A stretch of DNA of 55,083 bases from a virus (taxonomy: Duplodnaviria > Heunggongvirae > Uroviricota > Caudoviricetes), in IMG/VR virus record IMGVR_UViG_2923307698_000002, positions 1-55,083 of that record; one strand, 5' to 3'. The first letter of the stretch is position 1; every line of letters starts with the position of its first letter. The notes under the pieces are model-generated. The model worked only from the letters and a program-made list of their open reading frames with translations, ran no database searches and had not been told where the DNA came from. The position numbers were made by a program, and so were the translations under genes. This document shows, in pieces, positions 7,976 through 12,979 of the stretch.

Positions 7976-8109
7976 AAAAAATCCGGCTGATAGCTTATAA
8001 ATCCGGTGATGTTCGGTGACTAAAAAACATAAAAAAACCCGCCAATCAAGTGATTAGCGGGTTATCCCTGTCTTATCCGGTGCTTTCCGGTGATATCCGG
8101 TGGGCGATT

Positions 8110-8155
8110 TGGTCGGCACGAGAGGATTTGAACCTCCGACCCCCGACACCCCATG
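8110..8155 (-). other. attachment-site core: 3' 46 nt of tRNA-Pro(GGG)-like gene (partial tRNA, no 5' half)
   Basis: Minus strand reads CATGGGGTGTCGGGGGTCGGAGGTTCAAATCCTCTCGTGCCGACCA: anticodon loop with GGG, variable loop, T-arm GGAGG/TTCAAAT/CCTCT, acceptor and CCA; upstream sequence cannot form acceptor or D arms. Confidence 0.65.
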
Positions 8156-8370
8156 TCACCGCGCCTGAAACGCTGGAGACCGCGCCATTGCTGGGCTGGC
8201 AGGGTGTTTCACTGTGTGCGCAAACAGTGCATAATTCGCAAAATTCACGCTATATACATCAATGAGTTAAGAGAGATTTTTCCCCACTCCTAAATGGTCA
8301 GTTTTTGGAGCATTACTATATTAATAGGTTCCGTCTATAGCACTTTTTGATTTGCTTCTAATATGCTTTT

Positions 8371-8397: not shown

Positions 8398-8593
8398 ACT
8401 TATCTCCTAAGTTTCCGAGCGGCTACATGTTTTTTGTTGATTGTTTTATGTTTGGCGTAAAGTCAACAATTACTTCGCTTTTTGACCATTTTAGCCCATT
8501 GGAAATTACGATCATCTTCATGTAACCTTCTAAAACTTACTAAGATTGCAGAAGTTAAAGCAACATAGCTCGTAGTTTCTTAAAGGTGATTTA

Positions 8594-9361
8594 ATGCCAC
8601 AGCCGGCGCTAAAAGCGAACGAAATCAGCAGTGAATTAATCGATATTCTTGCGGCTCGGAATACGATATCCGAAATGCAATATTTTCGTTATATCAGAGA
8701 TATAGAAAAGTTGCGCGACAGCGCATCTGAGGACTATCTCAAAGCGTTGGCTAATGGTGCTTTTGGGCGTAAAGATACTGCAGTTGCATTCTTTGAAGAA
8801 GCATTGAAGCATAACAACCTGATCATTGCTCAAAATTATGTAGTTTATCTCAACGATTACGGCAGCTTCCGTGAAGTTGAACAAGTGGTAAATCGATTAG
8901 TTGAACGTTATAACTCCCCTACGATGCTGTCCCATGCATGGGAAGCTAACTTGTTCTTGGGGCGTATTGACAAAGCGCTCTACTATGCTGAGAGATTGAT
9001 AAGTATGGTAGATGAAAAGGAGGCTGAATTGGTTAAGCACCTCGCAGCCACAGCACTGGCCCAATCCACGACCTTCAAAAGTGCAACTGGAATTACTGAT
9101 GAAGAACTACAGGATATTGCAAACCGCATAGTGGATATCATGGCTGACCATAAAGTTAGTCCTGTTGCTATGTCTTTCTGCTCTATCCCTGAAGAGCGTA
9201 CGTCATCATATGTCATGGCAGTTAATACTGAAGATTCTGATGTTCTCTCTGATATGAACTTGGATATAGCATTTTCTCTTGCAGAAAATGAAAGTTTGAT
9301 TGGAAAACCCTTCAGCGTATGGTTTGAAGGGCGTTTGGAGGAACCTGCGCGTGCCAGTTAA
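8594..9361 (+). CDS. hypothetical protein (255 aa), first gene of two-gene cargo operon
   Basis: ATG 8594 after AAGGTGA; AT-rich codon usage unlike the flanking phage DNA; no family recognised. Confidence 0.55.
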   Translation: MPQPALKANEISSELIDILAARNTISEMQYFRYIRDIEKLRDSASEDYLKALANGAFGRKDTAVAFFEEALKHNNLIIAQNYVVYLNDYGSFREVEQVVNRLVERYNSPTMLSHAWEANLFLGRIDKALYYAERLISMVDEKEAELVKHLAATALAQSTTFKSATGITDEELQDIANRIVDIMADHKVSPVAMSFCSIPEERTSSYVMAVNTEDSDVLSDMNLDIAFSLAENESLIGKPFSVWFEGRLEEPARAS

Positions 9362-9734
9362 TAGTTCCGATTTTATCGCTTTCGCAAAAGATTGTGAAAA
9401 GCGTAACGACGAAATTGGTTACAGAAACGCTGTCGCACGTGCGTATTATGGTGCTTATCACCACGTACTTCCGTGTTTGACCATGGGGCCGAAAGAAAGT
9501 CACCAAGGCCTCATTGACTATCTTGTTAACGATGCTTGGAAGGGTAACGAACCTTTTGAAAAAAGAGACTTAATTGGTTTGGGGTATGCTCTTCAATCGC
9601 TTAAGGATCAGAGAATAGTTTGTGATTACAGACTTAACGACACTATTACGCCAACCCAATCAAGCACCGCGATTAAGACTGCAGAGAAATTAATCCAGCG
9701 TTGCGCTAATATGACCAAGTCTAAAGCGTCCTAA
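9351..9734 (+). CDS. hypothetical protein (127 aa), possible HEPN-like fold
   Basis: Probable GTG start at 9351 after GGAGG, overlapping the upstream stop; contains R-x6-H (RAYYGAYH); assignment speculative. Confidence 0.45.
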   Translation: MPVNSSDFIAFAKDCEKRNDEIGYRNAVARAYYGAYHHVLPCLTMGPKESHQGLIDYLVNDAWKGNEPFEKRDLIGLGYALQSLKDQRIVCDYRLNDTITPTQSSTAIKTAEKLIQRCANMTKSKAS

Positions 9735-9740
9735 TCCCCA

Positions 9741-9770
9741 AAATTGGCCTCATTTGAGGCCAATTTTATT
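9741..9770 (+). terminator. rho-independent terminator
   Basis: Hairpin TTGGCCTC-attt-GAGGCCAA followed by TTTTATT. Confidence 0.5.
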
Positions 9771-9774
9771 ATGC

Positions 9775-10140
9775 ATTGTATTTAATTTCACCGTGCGGAA
9801 GCATTACCCAATCATATGGTTCCGCGTATAAATTTTCGTTGATTTCGCGTCGCTGTGGGCTATGAGCCCTTGTGGTCTACTCCCTGTTTATCAAACAAAA
9901 TGCAGCTAGTGCGCGTATTTTGTGGAATGTGGGGGCGCAGCTCCATCGTCAAATTATTACACAAGCCTAACGAATCACGGGGCAATGAAAAGTATGGCTA
10001 AGATAGGCAGGTGCGGATACCTCTTTACTGCGTTTGTTATTACGCTCGGTATACGGTGAACGATATACGGGCAGGCAACGTTATCGCGACTGTTATCAAT
10101 AATACGTTTCAGTTTGTCCTCGAACTACATCACAACCGGC
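9775..10140 (-). pseudogene. integrase 3'-end remnant (frameshifted fragment)
   Basis: Nucleotide and translated similarity to the 3' third of the intact int at 11312-11700 (e.g. ...QGLIAHSDAKSTKIYT vs ...QGRMAHSDAKSTKIYT); 1-nt indel and stops; no 5' part. Confidence 0.6.
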
Positions 10141-10217
10141 TTGAAAACTAATTACTGGATTTTGTGCCTCCATAATCATATGATTTAAAATGTTATTTTA
10201 TAAAAAAGGAGTTGTAT

Positions 10218-11174
10218 ATGACCAATTTGTATAAGTTTATGGGAGCGGATATAATTGATAAATTGATGATGGATGAAACACATATAGGAATAAAATTCTC
10301 TCATTTACATGAATATAATGATCCCTATGAGTTTTTCCTTACTATTGATTTTAATCGCGGTTCTGATGAGTTAGCATTTTACAATGAAATGATTGGCATG
10401 GTTACAAAACAACCAGCAACTTGTTTTACGAAAAGCCCTGTGATACCACCTATGTGGGCACATTATGCAGGTAATTCTTCTGGTTTTGTAATAGAGATTA
10501 ATGAGGAGAAGTTTAAAAAGTATTTGGATGAAATCGGCTTCCAGGATCATAGTTCAATAGCAGATGTTGAATATAAAGATTCTCCAGATACAGGTATTGA
10601 AGACATTCTGGCGAGAGCATTTCATATCTGTAAACCTCGTTATATCTACTGGCTACAATCCTGTATAATGACAGCCGCATATTTGACAAAACAAACTTGC
10701 TGGAGTTATGAGCAGGAACGTCGCGTAATAATTAATGAGAAAGCACTTACTAAACTGAATGACAATCTTATGCTCCTTCCGGTACCGATTAATTGTATAA
10801 CTGGAGTTATAGTTGGGCACAAATCAAATGATTTATTAAAGCAGAAAATTCAATCTTTAGCTAAAAAGGCTAAATGTAGATATTTCGAAATGGTAATAGG
10901 AAAAACAACAACTACACCATTTCTTTTATCTCAAAATCTCAAATCACACCAATTTATTAATGGCAATATAATACCTGCATCAAGGCAATGTAAAAAATGT
11001 TATGAGCCTTTAAACATGGAAAATAAAGTTTGTGGCTGGTGTGGAATTACTAATCATGATGTGAAAATGGCAGAGTACCGTAATTCATTTCGAATGATAG
11101 CCAACTATGGTGGGCTGGATAAATATATATCATCCATGAATAAGATTACTGAAGAGTATAATAAGGGTAAATAA
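10218..11174 (+). CDS. DUF2971-like protein with C-terminal zinc ribbon
   Basis: ATG 10218 after AAAGGAG; motifs LYKF...FS...NDPYEF, MWAHYA, WSYEQERR recalled as DUF2971 signature; C-x2-C-x13-C-x2-C at the C-terminus; AT-rich. Confidence 0.55.
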   Translation: MTNLYKFMGADIIDKLMMDETHIGIKFSHLHEYNDPYEFFLTIDFNRGSDELAFYNEMIGMVTKQPATCFTKSPVIPPMWAHYAGNSSGFVIEINEEKFKKYLDEIGFQDHSSIADVEYKDSPDTGIEDILARAFHICKPRYIYWLQSCIMTAAYLTKQTCWSYEQERRVIINEKALTKLNDNLMLLPVPINCITGVIVGHKSNDLLKQKIQSLAKKAKCRYFEMVIGKTTTTPFLLSQNLKSHQFINGNIIPASRQCKKCYEPLNMENKVCGWCGITNHDVKMAEYRNSFRMIANYGGLDKYISSMNKITEEYNKGK

Positions 11175-11311
11175 ATTTTATTAATAAATATTGCTTTCTG
11201 GACAAGGGAGAAGTTATGGTAAATGGGCATAGAACTGCCTTTTAAATTAAGCTTTACTCTATGCCTTAGCAACCGTTATTGTCAGTCAAAATAAAGTGGA
11301 GAATTTAATAA

Positions 11312-12496
11312 CTAACCGGTTTTAATTTCTCCATGAGGGACAACAATCCAATCTATATGATTTTTAGTATAAATTTTAGTAGATTTCGCATCGCTATGTG
11401 CCATTCGTCCCTGCGGATCAATCCCTTGTTTATCAAATAGGTGAGCTGCCAAAGCTCTTATTTCATGGAATGTAGGTCTTTGTTCCATTGCTAGATGATT
11501 GCATAGTCCGAGTTTGTCTCGCACGGAAGAGAATGACCGACTCAAATAATCTGGTGCAACTTGAGTTGGGTGCGAAACCTCTTTACTGCGTTTAACATGC
11601 CGTTCTGGGATTCTATGAACGACAAAGGGACTGGCCACATTGTCACGGCTATTGTCAATTATCCGTTTCAATTCTTCACCAATTGGTATTGCAACATGTG
11701 ATGCCTCCTTTTTTTGTACTTTTTGCCTATGGATGTATAGTGTACCATATATGCCATTTTGTGGTTGTTCGAACCAAACACATCCACATAAACCGTCTTT
11801 AGGTTCGCGAATTGAGTAACGGATTCGCGATACTTCGAGTCGTGCATGTGTAGTCTGCAATGCTAGGTCCATTGCTGTTCTTAACCATGGTGCAGCGGCC
11901 TGCCTGATAGCTATAAAATGCTCGAGTGACAGGCGCCGTCTTTTCTTCTCATCAGTCCTACGCATTTTTTTTCTGATGGCCGGGTTATCCTGCATTAGTG
12001 ATTCATCGACCGCATAAGAGAACAACTTTTTAAGAAAGCTGACCTTTCTGTTCTGCACATTTGCGGATGCGCTGGCATGATATTTGTTGATGTAGGCATT
12101 AACGTGTTCAAGTTCGATATCGCATGCCGGAACATTTACGAAAAACGCTTTTACGCGTAGAGCGTCATTTTTCCAGTCATCTAAGGTACTCTGGGAAGGT
12201 CGTTCGTCTTCGATAATTCTGGCCATTATGTGATCGACATGTTCAGCAAATGGTTTTGCTTCTCCGGTGACCCCGCCAGATTCTCTAATAAGATTATCCA
12301 CTGATGGGTATAATTCTGATCGCATCCTCAGGTTGTACTCTCTGGCGATTGCAACGGCTATTGCCCGATCCTTACCTATATTTTTCTTTTTTCCGGTAAT
12401 AAGTGTGAATTTATAAACACCTCGATCTTTATCAAAAACCAGATAATCAGGAAGATGTCTGTATTCTTTTTTACGTGGCCTTGCCGCCATGGTCAT
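11312..12496 (-). CDS. int: tyrosine integrase, lambda-type
   Basis: 394 aa; N-terminal arm-binding region and C-terminal catalytic domain; ATGA overlap with xis. Confidence 0.9.
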   Translation of the reverse strand: MTMAARPRKKEYRHLPDYLVFDKDRGVYKFTLITGKKKNIGKDRAIAVAIAREYNLRMRSELYPSVDNLIRESGGVTGEAKPFAEHVDHIMARIIEDERPSQSTLDDWKNDALRVKAFFVNVPACDIELEHVNAYINKYHASASANVQNRKVSFLKKLFSYAVDESLMQDNPAIRKKMRRTDEKKRRRLSLEHFIAIRQAAAPWLRTAMDLALQTTHARLEVSRIRYSIREPKDGLCGCVWFEQPQNGIYGTLYIHRQKVQKKEASHVAIPIGEELKRIIDNSRDNVASPFVVHRIPERHVKRSKEVSHPTQVAPDYLSRSFSSVRDKLGLCNHLAMEQRPTFHEIRALAAHLFDKQGIDPQGRMAHSDAKSTKIYTKNHIDWIVVPHGEIKTG

Positions 12497-12702
12497 CCCT
12501 CATTTATTAACTTGCGAACAGCTTGACTAACCATTGAGTCGACTCCCCATTTTTCTGTTTCGCAGACAAAAACAGAACCGTCCACGATACGCCCCATGAG
12601 CAGACCGTTCTCGACCCAGCGTTTTATCGTTCGGTTGTCAGGAATTGAGCCATTAGAGAATTCACGGCGTCCCCATTGGCTCGCTTTCATTAGTTTTGCC
12701 AT
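12493..12702 (-). CDS. xis: excisionase (Xis-like)
   Basis: Start placed at ATG 12702 with GGAGAAA RBS (69 aa); coupled upstream of int. Confidence 0.6.
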   Translation of the reverse strand: MAKLMKASQWGRREFSNGSIPDNRTIKRWVENGLLMGRIVDGSVFVCETEKWGVDSMVSQAVRKLINEG

Positions 12703-12763
12703 GGCTGTTTCTCCACTTAACCCGCTGCACACGGGCAGTAATATCAAATTTCAGTCCTGATAA

Positions 12764-12979
12764 TTAATTTTGTTCTCTGGTTGCTACCTGTTTAATTGGC
12801 CTGATGCTGTCCAGGAGCAGTCGGCGGCGCGTATTTTCTGCAAAGTGGCGGCGTCCGGTTTCTTTGTGGTAAAACTCGTTTTCTCCGACGACCCACATCC
12901 GCTTTGTCTGGTGCAGTTTTTTTACCTGCGGACCGTTTCGGGTAATAACAATTCCTGTATGAGTTTTTATCACGCTCAT
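12764..12979 (-). CDS. hypothetical protein (71 aa)
   Basis: ATG 12979 with GGAGAA RBS; early-left operon. Confidence 0.4.
   Translation of the reverse strand: MSVIKTHTGIVITRNGPQVKKLHQTKRMWVVGENEFYHKETGRRHFAENTRRRLLLDSIRPIKQVATREQN

What the first reader, a model, noticed from the sequence alone, without database searches (positions are those of the whole stretch)
10218..11174. DUF2971-like protein with C-terminal zinc ribbon, flanked by integrase 3'-end homologies
A 318-aa protein carrying the motifs I associate with DUF2971, plus a CxxC...CxxC ribbon, sits between a decayed integrase 3' fragment (9775-10140) and the intact lambdoid int (11312-12496). Its AT-rich composition and position next to int suggest an acquired cargo gene. 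Together with the frameshifted paralogue at 52883-53670, the prophage is bracketed by two diverged members of one uncharacterised family.
Basis: partly seen in the sequence, partly recalled or inferred. Interest (0 to 1): 0.55.

Follow-up and report, generated by a model that had tools for sequence, protein, structure and literature searches.

The report
Prophage DarT-like ADP-ribosyltransferase cargo gene
A real, conserved gene at the edge of an E. coli prophage encodes a DarT-like ADP-ribosyltransferase-fold protein with a zinc ribbon; it most likely protects the host against other phages, but its family is already annotated and has one tested antiphage member, so it is a moderately interesting new member, not a new kind of system.

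Summary
Window 10218-11174 (+) encodes a 318-aa protein that passes Pfam's DUF2971 threshold. It has four invariant ribbon cysteines (C258/C261/C272/C275), is under purifying selection (dN/dS 0.10) and has 33% GC against 52% for the prophage. It lies inside a lambdoid prophage integrated at tRNA-Pro (proL), between attL (8110-8155) and int.

The integrase fragment (about 9781-10169) is real. Related prophages carry either attL-TPR-HEPN-int or attL-DUF2971-int, and this window is a composite of the two, with the first integrase's 3' end left behind.

The frameshifted paralogue (52883-53670) is real. It has A7 where the intact allele has A8, and it is homologous across the whole N-terminal domain (hhalign 97.8%), but it lacks the ribbon.

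Homologues sit alone in cargo slots of prophages, a P4-like satellite and a restriction-modification island. The best reading is a single-gene, antitoxin-free antiphage ADP-ribosyltransferase. The C-terminal module is subfamily-specific and has no known fold relative.

The parts
8110..8155 (-). attL core: 46-bp copy of the 3' end of tRNA-Pro (proL). The left boundary of the integrated element.
   Evidence: Matches tRNA-Pro at 100% in essentially all 5426 E. coli genomes. It is the only copy in the window. The intact tRNA-Pro lies just beyond the right end of the window.
8156..8286 (.). Phage-side attL arm shared by all proL-integrating relatives.
   Evidence: blastn: 76.7% to Klebsiella L004 7609-7788, and 78% to L022 and L024.
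8594..9361 (+). TPR-like gene. First gene of the alternative cargo pair that occupies the attL-int slot in related prophages.
   Evidence: phrog_17809 E 3.7e-42. Weak TPR Pfam hits below threshold. In L018-L024 it lies attL-proximal to an intact int.
9351..9734 (+). HEPN-like 127-aa gene. Overlaps the TPR-like gene by 11 nt.
   Evidence: phrog_5176 E 3.4e-29. Pfam HEPN only E 0.099. An RAYYGAYH (Rx6H) motif is visible in the translation. Always paired with the TPR-like gene.
9781..10169 (-). int': a decayed 3' fragment (about the last 125 codons) of a different integrase allele. A scar from an ancestral attL-TPR-HEPN-int arrangement.
   Evidence: tblastn. Collinear with L018-L020 from attL through about 340 nt of their intact int, with homology ending at ~10109-10123. 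RefSeq pseudogene 'recombinase'.
10206..10211 (+). Shine-Dalgarno AAGGAG, 6 nt before the ATG.
   Evidence: Read directly from the sequence.
10218..11174 (+). D1: 318-aa DUF2971 protein. It has a DarT/Tpt1-like ADP-ribosyltransferase-fold domain (aa 1-~225) and a C-terminal zinc-ribbon/helical module (aa 226-318).
10710..10724 (+). Codons for E165-Q-E167-R-R169 (the ExE motif III of the ART fold), invariant in both subfamilies.
   Evidence: Alignments A1 and A3 and the hhalign register. Motif definition from PMC12522546.
10989..11042 (+). Zinc ribbon C258-x2-C261 ... C272-x2-C275.
   Evidence: Invariant in 45/45 sequences. pLDDT is above 90 across this region.
11312..12496 (-). Intact lambda-type tyrosine integrase. 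It travels with D1 as one block (10179-12736).
   Evidence: Pfam Arm-DNA-bind_1 and Phage_integrase. The block is 76.5% identical to Klebsiella L004 7962-10480.
12493..12705 (-). Excisionase-like small gene downstream of int.
   Evidence: ORF. Conserved next to int in all related loci.
52883..53670 (-). D2: DUF2971 paralogue without a ribbon. A pseudogene caused by a 1-nt deletion in an A8 run (A7 at 53313-53319).
53881..55083 (-). DUF4236 gene, a constant neighbour of D2 at the tail-fibre end of the prophage.
   Evidence: Pfam DUF4236 E 7e-21. The same tfa-DUF2971-DUF4236 order occurs in a prophage at another chromosomal site (L002).

Best explanation
D1 is a stand-alone accessory ('moron') gene of a lambdoid prophage integrated at proL. 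It encodes an ADP-ribosyltransferase-fold enzyme of the DUF2971 family whose nearest solved relatives modify nucleic acids (DarT, Tpt1/KptA). The most likely mechanism has four steps. The lysogen expresses it. It stays inactive without needing an antitoxin. When another phage infects, it uses NAD+ to ADP-ribosylate DNA or RNA (less likely a protein), which blocks phage transcription or replication and aborts the infection. The invariant zinc-ribbon/helical C-terminal module, found only in this subfamily, is proposed to hold the nucleic-acid substrate or to gate activity. What is shown: gene reality and purifying selection, family membership, ART fold with DarT/Tpt1 as the closest structures, invariant ExE, Tyr and Cys4 residues, solitary occurrence in cargo slots of mobile elements, and the composite origin of the locus. 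What is inferred: catalysis, the target, the trigger, the antiphage phenotype and the role of the ribbon. The flanking integrase fragment arose when an attL-TPR-HEPN-int prophage left end was joined to a DUF2971-int-xis block. That could have happened by tandem lysogeny at proL followed by deletion, or by illegitimate recombination.
Confidence: 0.55

Rival explanations
1. D1 serves the phage and not the host. It would be an ART made during lytic growth to reprogramme or disarm the host, like T4 Alt/ModA/ModB, or to counter NAD+-based defences.
For: It is phage-borne in most sampled contexts. In Morganella it sits in the nin region, co-oriented with the early-right operon. In Edwardsiella it lies between Q and the lysis genes.
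Against: In E. coli and Klebsiella it sits between attL and int, transcribed convergently with int, which is a typical lysogenic-conversion slot. Relatives also occur on plasmids, in a P4-like satellite and next to R-M genes. The PDC-S31 family was defined from genes embedded in defence systems. Aristaios is plasmid-borne and defensive.
Confidence: 0.15
2. D1 is the toxin of a cryptic addiction or toxin-antitoxin module that stabilises the prophage, with an unrecognised small protein or RNA antitoxin and no phage sensing.
For: Its closest structural relatives, the DarT proteins, are TA toxins. The second copy, D2, is inactivated by a frameshift, as often happens to toxic genes.
Against: No partner gene or conserved flank recurs across seven different contexts. 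Only 39 bp upstream is shared with the Klebsiella locus. There is no macrodomain gene nearby. The gene is intact in 51 of 52 genomes without a partner.
Confidence: 0.1
3. The fold is used for different chemistry: Tpt1-like 2'-phosphate removal or capping of RNA ends, or plain NAD+ hydrolysis, and not ADP-ribosylation of a target base.
Against: An invariant ExE with adjacent Arg is typical of transferring ARTs (PMC12522546). I did not test for Tpt1's own catalytic residues.
Confidence: 0.12
4. D1 is an inert or decaying passenger with no current function.
For: It is present in only 52 of 5426 E. coli genomes. It sits in a mosaic, scarred region next to pseudogenes.
Against: dN/dS is 0.10, and 0.06 in the catalytic domain. 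About 40 residues are invariant across Enterobacterales, Pseudomonas and Rhizobium. It has a good Shine-Dalgarno.
Confidence: 0.05

Closest known systems
Aristaios (Lactococcus plasmid pUCCL641_199; single-gene abortive-infection system)
   Same: A single gene of almost the same length (316 vs 318 aa). Pfam DUF2971. An ADP-ribosyltransferase-like predicted fold. Carried on a mobile element.
   Different: Gram-positive plasmid versus enterobacterial prophage. Direct sequence similarity was not tested because the sequence is not held. Whether Aristaios has the Cys4 ribbon module is unknown. The mechanism of Aristaios itself is unresolved beyond an effect on phage transcription.
DarT of DarTG toxin-antitoxin / antiphage systems (PDB 7yk3, 7omv, 7omu, 8baq)
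   Different: 8-13% identity. No profile-level sequence match. No DarG macrodomain partner in any context. Large helical inserts and an extra zinc-ribbon module.
PADLOC phage defence candidate PDC-S31
   Same: D1 hits all five PDC-S31 models (best E 4.9e-22) and D2 hits three (best E 1.2e-11).
   Different: PDC systems are predictions from 'guilt by embedding' and are untested. The matches cover the ART domain only, not the ribbon module.
Tpt1/KptA RNA 2'-phosphotransferase (PDB 7yw4, 7yw2, 9ld3)
   Different: A housekeeping RNA-processing enzyme. No sequence similarity detected. Different genomic context.
Cargo or defence hotspots of temperate phages and satellites (lambdoid morons, P2/P4 hotspots)
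   Same: The attL-int slot of this proL prophage family holds alternative cargo (the TPR+HEPN pair, D1, or both). A D1 homologue lies in the cargo region of a P4-like satellite.
   Different: This is a comparison of location only. The hotspot concept comes from my own knowledge of the literature and was not looked up here.

Membership tests
Pfam DUF2971 (PF11185) | HMM score at or above the gathering threshold (22 bits) | tested here: met
   D1 scores 39.3 bits, E 1.8e-9, covering profile 1-89/89. The intact D2 allele scores 30.7 bits. The frameshifted D2 fragments alone give no Pfam hit.
Pfam DUF2971 (PF11185) | Conserved Tyr (motif II) and ExE (motif III), as described in PMC12522546 | tested here: met
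   Y83, Y119, E165 and E167 are invariant in 45 D1-type sequences. The aligned residues are invariant or nearly so in 38 D2-type sequences. H29 sits at the poorly conserved motif I position; this is an inference from the alignment.
ADP-ribosyltransferase fold superfamily | ART core fold recognisable by structure comparison | tested here: met
ADP-ribosyltransferase fold superfamily | NAD+ binding and ADP-ribosyl transfer | not testable with these tools
   Needs biochemistry. I also had no access to the model coordinates for docking or superposition.
DarTG toxin-antitoxin system | Sequence-profile membership in DarT | tested here: not met
   The only PADLOC families reported for D1 at E<=0.1 were the five PDC-S31 models, and Pfam reported no DarT family. 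The profile search against PDB sequences found no DarT chain at E<=10.
DarTG toxin-antitoxin system | Adjacent DarG macrodomain antitoxin | tested here: not met
   The neighbours are int' and int here. No macrodomain gene appears in seven other contexts.
Aristaios antiphage system | Single gene of ~316 aa with a DUF2971 domain and ART-like fold | tested here: met
   318 aa, DUF2971, ART fold, no conserved partner.
Aristaios antiphage system | Significant sequence similarity to the Aristaios protein or its HMM | not tested
   The sequence is not held: the paper has no supplements in text form. The PADLOC copy dates from 2023, before the 2024 paper that named Aristaios.
Aristaios antiphage system | Abortive-infection phenotype against phages | not testable with these tools
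   Requires phage challenge experiments.
PADLOC PDC-S31 | Match to the PDC-S31 HMMs | tested here: met
   PDLC04990 E 4.9e-22, PDLC04991 7.1e-18, and three more. The class itself is an untested candidate.
Zinc ribbon (Cys4) | Two CxxC knuckles, conserved, in a small beta structure | tested here: met
   C258, C261, C272 and C275 are invariant in 45/45 and in the 25-sequence module alignment. Beta hairpins precede the knuckles, with pLDDT above 90.
Zinc ribbon (Cys4) | Match to a curated zinc-ribbon family, or a known fold neighbour | tested here: inconclusive
Zinc ribbon (Cys4) | Metal binding | not testable with these tools
   Needs ICP-MS or a solved structure.

The most novel reading that the evidence does not exclude
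The D1 subfamily is a self-contained, antitoxin-free DarT-like immune enzyme. In this reading a previously undescribed Cys4-ribbon/three-helix module, found essentially only fused to this ART domain (109 of 1.84 billion representative proteins), senses a phage cue or clamps the nucleic-acid substrate, and so replaces the DarG-type control used by DarTG. The attL-int slot of proL-integrating lambdoid prophages would then be a defence hotspot in which this gene and a TPR+HEPN pair are exchangeable or stackable cargo.
Probability: 0.35. Interest if true: 0.6.

Novelty: new member of a known kind. Interest (0 to 1): 0.33.

Why it matters
If D1 is an active antiphage ADP-ribosyltransferase, it would be the first Gram-negative, prophage-borne, experimentally tractable counterpart of Aristaios. 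It would also raise a clear question: how is a DarT-like enzyme kept harmless without an antitoxin? The invariant ribbon module is an obvious candidate switch to mutate. The locus also documents a variable cargo slot between attL and int in a family of proL prophages, which is useful for mining further accessory or defence genes. As it stands, the gene is already annotated, its family is already predicted to be an ART, and the family is already listed as a defence candidate, so the advance is incremental.

Tried and rejected
1. The A1 profile against all PDB sequences gave only chance hits to ARF GTPases (E 0.35-1.7). Their name 'ADP-ribosylation factor' is a coincidence.
3. I asked whether the module is a portable sensor fused to other effectors. 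A profile search of 1.84 billion representatives found 109 hits. All but a handful of the weakest hits are collinear DUF2971 proteins or fragments of them, so this idea was rejected.
4. I looked for an internal att site beside int' that would prove tandem lysogeny. None was found; there is a single att core in the window.
5. Promoter and terminator scans around D1 found nothing above the shuffled expectation.
6. I first read a Tyr-to-His change before the ExE motif in D2 as a second lesion. I retracted this, because His is the consensus in D2's subfamily.
7. tblastn of D1 against 50,697 GenBank phages gave one weak hit (24.8% over 200 aa, a Klebsiella phage). The TPR-like gene gave none. The relatives are in prophages and viral contigs, not in isolated phage records.
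8. NCBIfam has no model for D1 or D2.
9. The Aristaios sequence could not be obtained from supplements.
10. The idea that int' is a recent duplication of the adjacent int was rejected. It is only 72-74% identical to it, and the left block that contains it (attL through int') is 82-87% identical to, and collinear with, the TPR/HEPN-linked int of other prophages.

Full report
**1. Where the window comes from**

The window is an E. coli chromosomal segment. Positions 8500-12800 are 100% identical to several complete genomes, for example O25b:H4 NZ_CP015085 and strain 65COLEC.

The gene order there is ccm genes, narP, yejO (a pseudogene), then the island. The island ends at tRNA-Pro (proL) and yejM, just beyond the right end of the window.

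Window 8110-8155 is a perfect copy of the 3' end of tRNA-Pro. It is present at proL in essentially all 5426 genomes and occurs only once in the window. It is therefore attL of an element integrated at proL.

RefSeq annotation shows a complete lambdoid prophage running from int to the tail fibre genes.

**2. Checking the observation**

- **The gene.** The ORF is at 10218-11174 on the plus strand and encodes 318 aa. An AAGGAG Shine-Dalgarno lies 6 nt upstream of the ATG. RefSeq already names it 'DUF2971 domain-containing protein'.
- **Family.** It passes Pfam's curated threshold for DUF2971 (39.3 against 22 bits). It also hits PADLOC PDC-S31 (E 4.9e-22) and phrog_1762 (E 1.8e-33).
- **Homologues and ribbon.** A search of 5.8 billion proteins returned 48 homologues, nearly all full-length (about 276-348 aa), from Enterobacterales, Pseudomonas and Rhizobium. 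In their alignment the four ribbon cysteines (C258, C261, C272, C275) are invariant. So are NDPxE (34-38), C69-F70, PMWAHY (78-83), Y119, K139, R141, Y155, K158 and W162-x-Y164-E165-x-E167-x-R169.
- **Selection and composition.** Against the Klebsiella orthologue dN/dS is 0.10, with 0.06 for residues 1-225 and 0.25 for residues 226-318. GC content is 0.333, against 0.518 for the prophage body. This is a real, selected, horizontally acquired gene.
- **Integrase fragment.** tblastn aligns int residues 257-392 to about 9781-10169 on the minus strand, across several frames and stops. RefSeq marks a 'recombinase' pseudogene there.
- **Paralogue.** D2 lies at 52883-53670 (-). It differs from an intact 262-aa allele by one base in a homopolymer: A7 at 53313-53319 where the intact allele has A8. 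The same A7 appears in three independent assemblies.

**3. Are the two copies one family?**

Yes.
- The intact D2 allele passes Pfam DUF2971 (30.7 bits). PGAP names it accordingly.
- Pairwise BLASTP between D1 and D2 is marginal: 21% over 76 residues, E 0.005.
- Profile-profile comparison of 45 D1-type and 38 D2-type sequences gives 97.8% probability, E 1.1e-12. It covers 209 columns, D1 residues 3-236 against D2 residues 5-237.
- The shared, strongly conserved core (invariant in D1's subfamily, invariant or nearly so in D2's) is D-P-x-E, Cys, M-W-x-x-Y, Tyr, Lys and E-x-E-x-R.
- D2 ends shortly after this domain and has no ribbon.

I first took a Tyr-to-His difference before the ExE motif in D2 for a second lesion. 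His is the consensus there in D2's subfamily, so I withdrew that reading.

**4. What the protein is**

- **Model.** AlphaFold2 with the 45-sequence alignment gave a confident model: pLDDT 90.5, pTM 0.82.
- **Sequence level.** There is no detectable link to DarT or to any solved structure.
- **PADLOC.** PDC systems are untested candidates derived from genes embedded in known defence systems (bioRxiv 10.1101/2024.01.29.577857).

**5. The C-terminal module**

Residues 226-318 comprise two beta hairpins, the Cys4 ribbon and three helices.

A profile of this module, searched against 1.84 billion representative proteins, found only 109 matches at E<=1e-3. BLASTP and Pfam checks show that nearly all are collinear DUF2971 proteins or fragments of them.

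It is therefore a rare hallmark of this subfamily and not a portable domain. Its role is inferred only.

**6. Genomic contexts**

D1-type genes are solitary and sit in accessory slots of mobile elements:

| Organism | Context |
|---|---|
| Klebsiella | between attL and int |
| Morganella | nin region of a lambdoid prophage |
| Pseudomonas syringae | past the tail and lysis genes |
| Pantoea | next to the primase of a P4-like satellite (Psu, Ogr/Delta, AlpA, ASH) |
| Serratia | beside a Type III R-M system and a SMEK-domain gene |
| Edwardsiella | between Q and the lysis genes |
| Shewanella, Agrobacterium, Rhizobium | on plasmids |

No partner gene recurs, and no macrodomain gene is present. 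In E. coli the gene is rare: 52 of 5426 complete genomes carry it, and 51 of those copies are at least 99% identical to the window.

**7. Why an integrase fragment flanks it**

- In Klebsiella the order is attL, a ~130-bp arm, D1, int, xis. Window 8108-8286 and 10179-12736 match that locus at about 76.5%.
- Seven IMG/VR contigs and fragments carry attL, the TPR-like gene, the HEPN-like gene, an intact int and xis, with no D1.
- Window 8107 to about 10112 is collinear with those contigs at 82-87% and runs about 340 nt into their int gene.
- The window is therefore a composite. The left end of a TPR/HEPN-type prophage, including the 3' end of its int, is joined to a D1-int-xis block that begins 39 bp upstream of D1.
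- int' is only 72-74% identical to the neighbouring intact int, so it is not a recent duplication.
- Two routes would give this structure: tandem lysogeny at proL followed by a deletion from inside the first int to just upstream of D1, or an illegitimate crossover. No internal att survives to tell them apart.
- In E. coli the left module and D1 co-occur in about the same number of complete genomes (52 each).
- So the slot between attL and int holds alternative cargo that can be stacked.

**8. Mechanism and rivals**

The best-supported account is a single-gene, antitoxin-free antiphage ART. On infection it would ADP-ribosylate nucleic acid and abort phage development, and the ribbon module would bind the substrate or gate activity.

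The family, fold, conserved residues, selection and context are shown. The catalysis, target, trigger and phenotype are inferred, with a confidence of about 0.55.

The rivals are a phage-serving lytic-cycle ART, a cryptic toxin-antitoxin toxin, Tpt1-like or NADase chemistry, and an inert passenger. They are set out with their tests in the rivals section.

**9. Verdict**

This is a new, ribbon-bearing member of a known kind, and it is already annotated in RefSeq. Its interest is moderate to low (0.33). It would be higher if the ribbon module proves to be the switch that lets a DarT-like enzyme do without an antitoxin.

Noticed in passing
window 8594-9361 (+) and 9351-9734 (+): An overlapping gene pair: a TPR-like gene (phrog_17809) and a 127-aa HEPN-like gene (phrog_5176, Pfam HEPN only E 0.099, RAYYGAYH = Rx6H motif). 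In related proL prophages the pair fills the attL-int slot in place of DUF2971. It is a candidate two-gene defence or toxin module with no PADLOC, NCBIfam or solid Pfam assignment.
   Followed up: partly
window 24910-25773 (-): A 287-aa gene in the low-GC stretch (~0.40) near the Q and lysis genes matches PADLOC candidate PDC-S42 (E 9.8e-33). It also matches NCBIfam NF053583 'LAPAL motif-containing putative phage structural protein' (207.6 bits). The two labels conflict. Its orientation is opposite to the late operon.
   Followed up: partly
window 53313-53319 (D2, minus strand A-run): The D2 frameshift is a 1-nt contraction of an A8 homopolymer inside a KSKKK stretch, and it is shared by three assemblies. 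Intact A8 alleles are common elsewhere (cluster P0155, 480 member sequences). It could simply be decay. Slippage-prone on/off switching is also conceivable but was not examined.
   Followed up: partly
window 53881-55083 (-) and L002 7101-8303: A 400-aa DUF4236 protein (phrog_17982) always accompanies D2 directly downstream of the tail fibre assembly gene, including in a prophage at a different chromosomal site. The pair may be a unit.
   Followed up: no
window 48791-52195 (+): The tail fibre gene has a very long Ala/Ser/Thr-rich low-complexity central region. It is longer (3405 nt) than in NZ_CP015085 (3228 nt), so the repeat length varies between otherwise near-identical prophages.
   Followed up: no
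L001 (strain 65COLEC) versus the window: In 65COLEC the same proL island keeps attL, TPR/HEPN, int', D1, int and the early genes up to yfdP. It then jumps to a truncated tail fibre gene, so about 30 kb of prophage is deleted while D1 is retained intact.
   Followed up: no
H35, NZ_CP042336 (strain GZ04-0086): One of the 52 D1-carrying genomes has an IS1 element under the D1 match, which is split into two pieces. This is the only visibly disrupted region among them.
   Followed up: no
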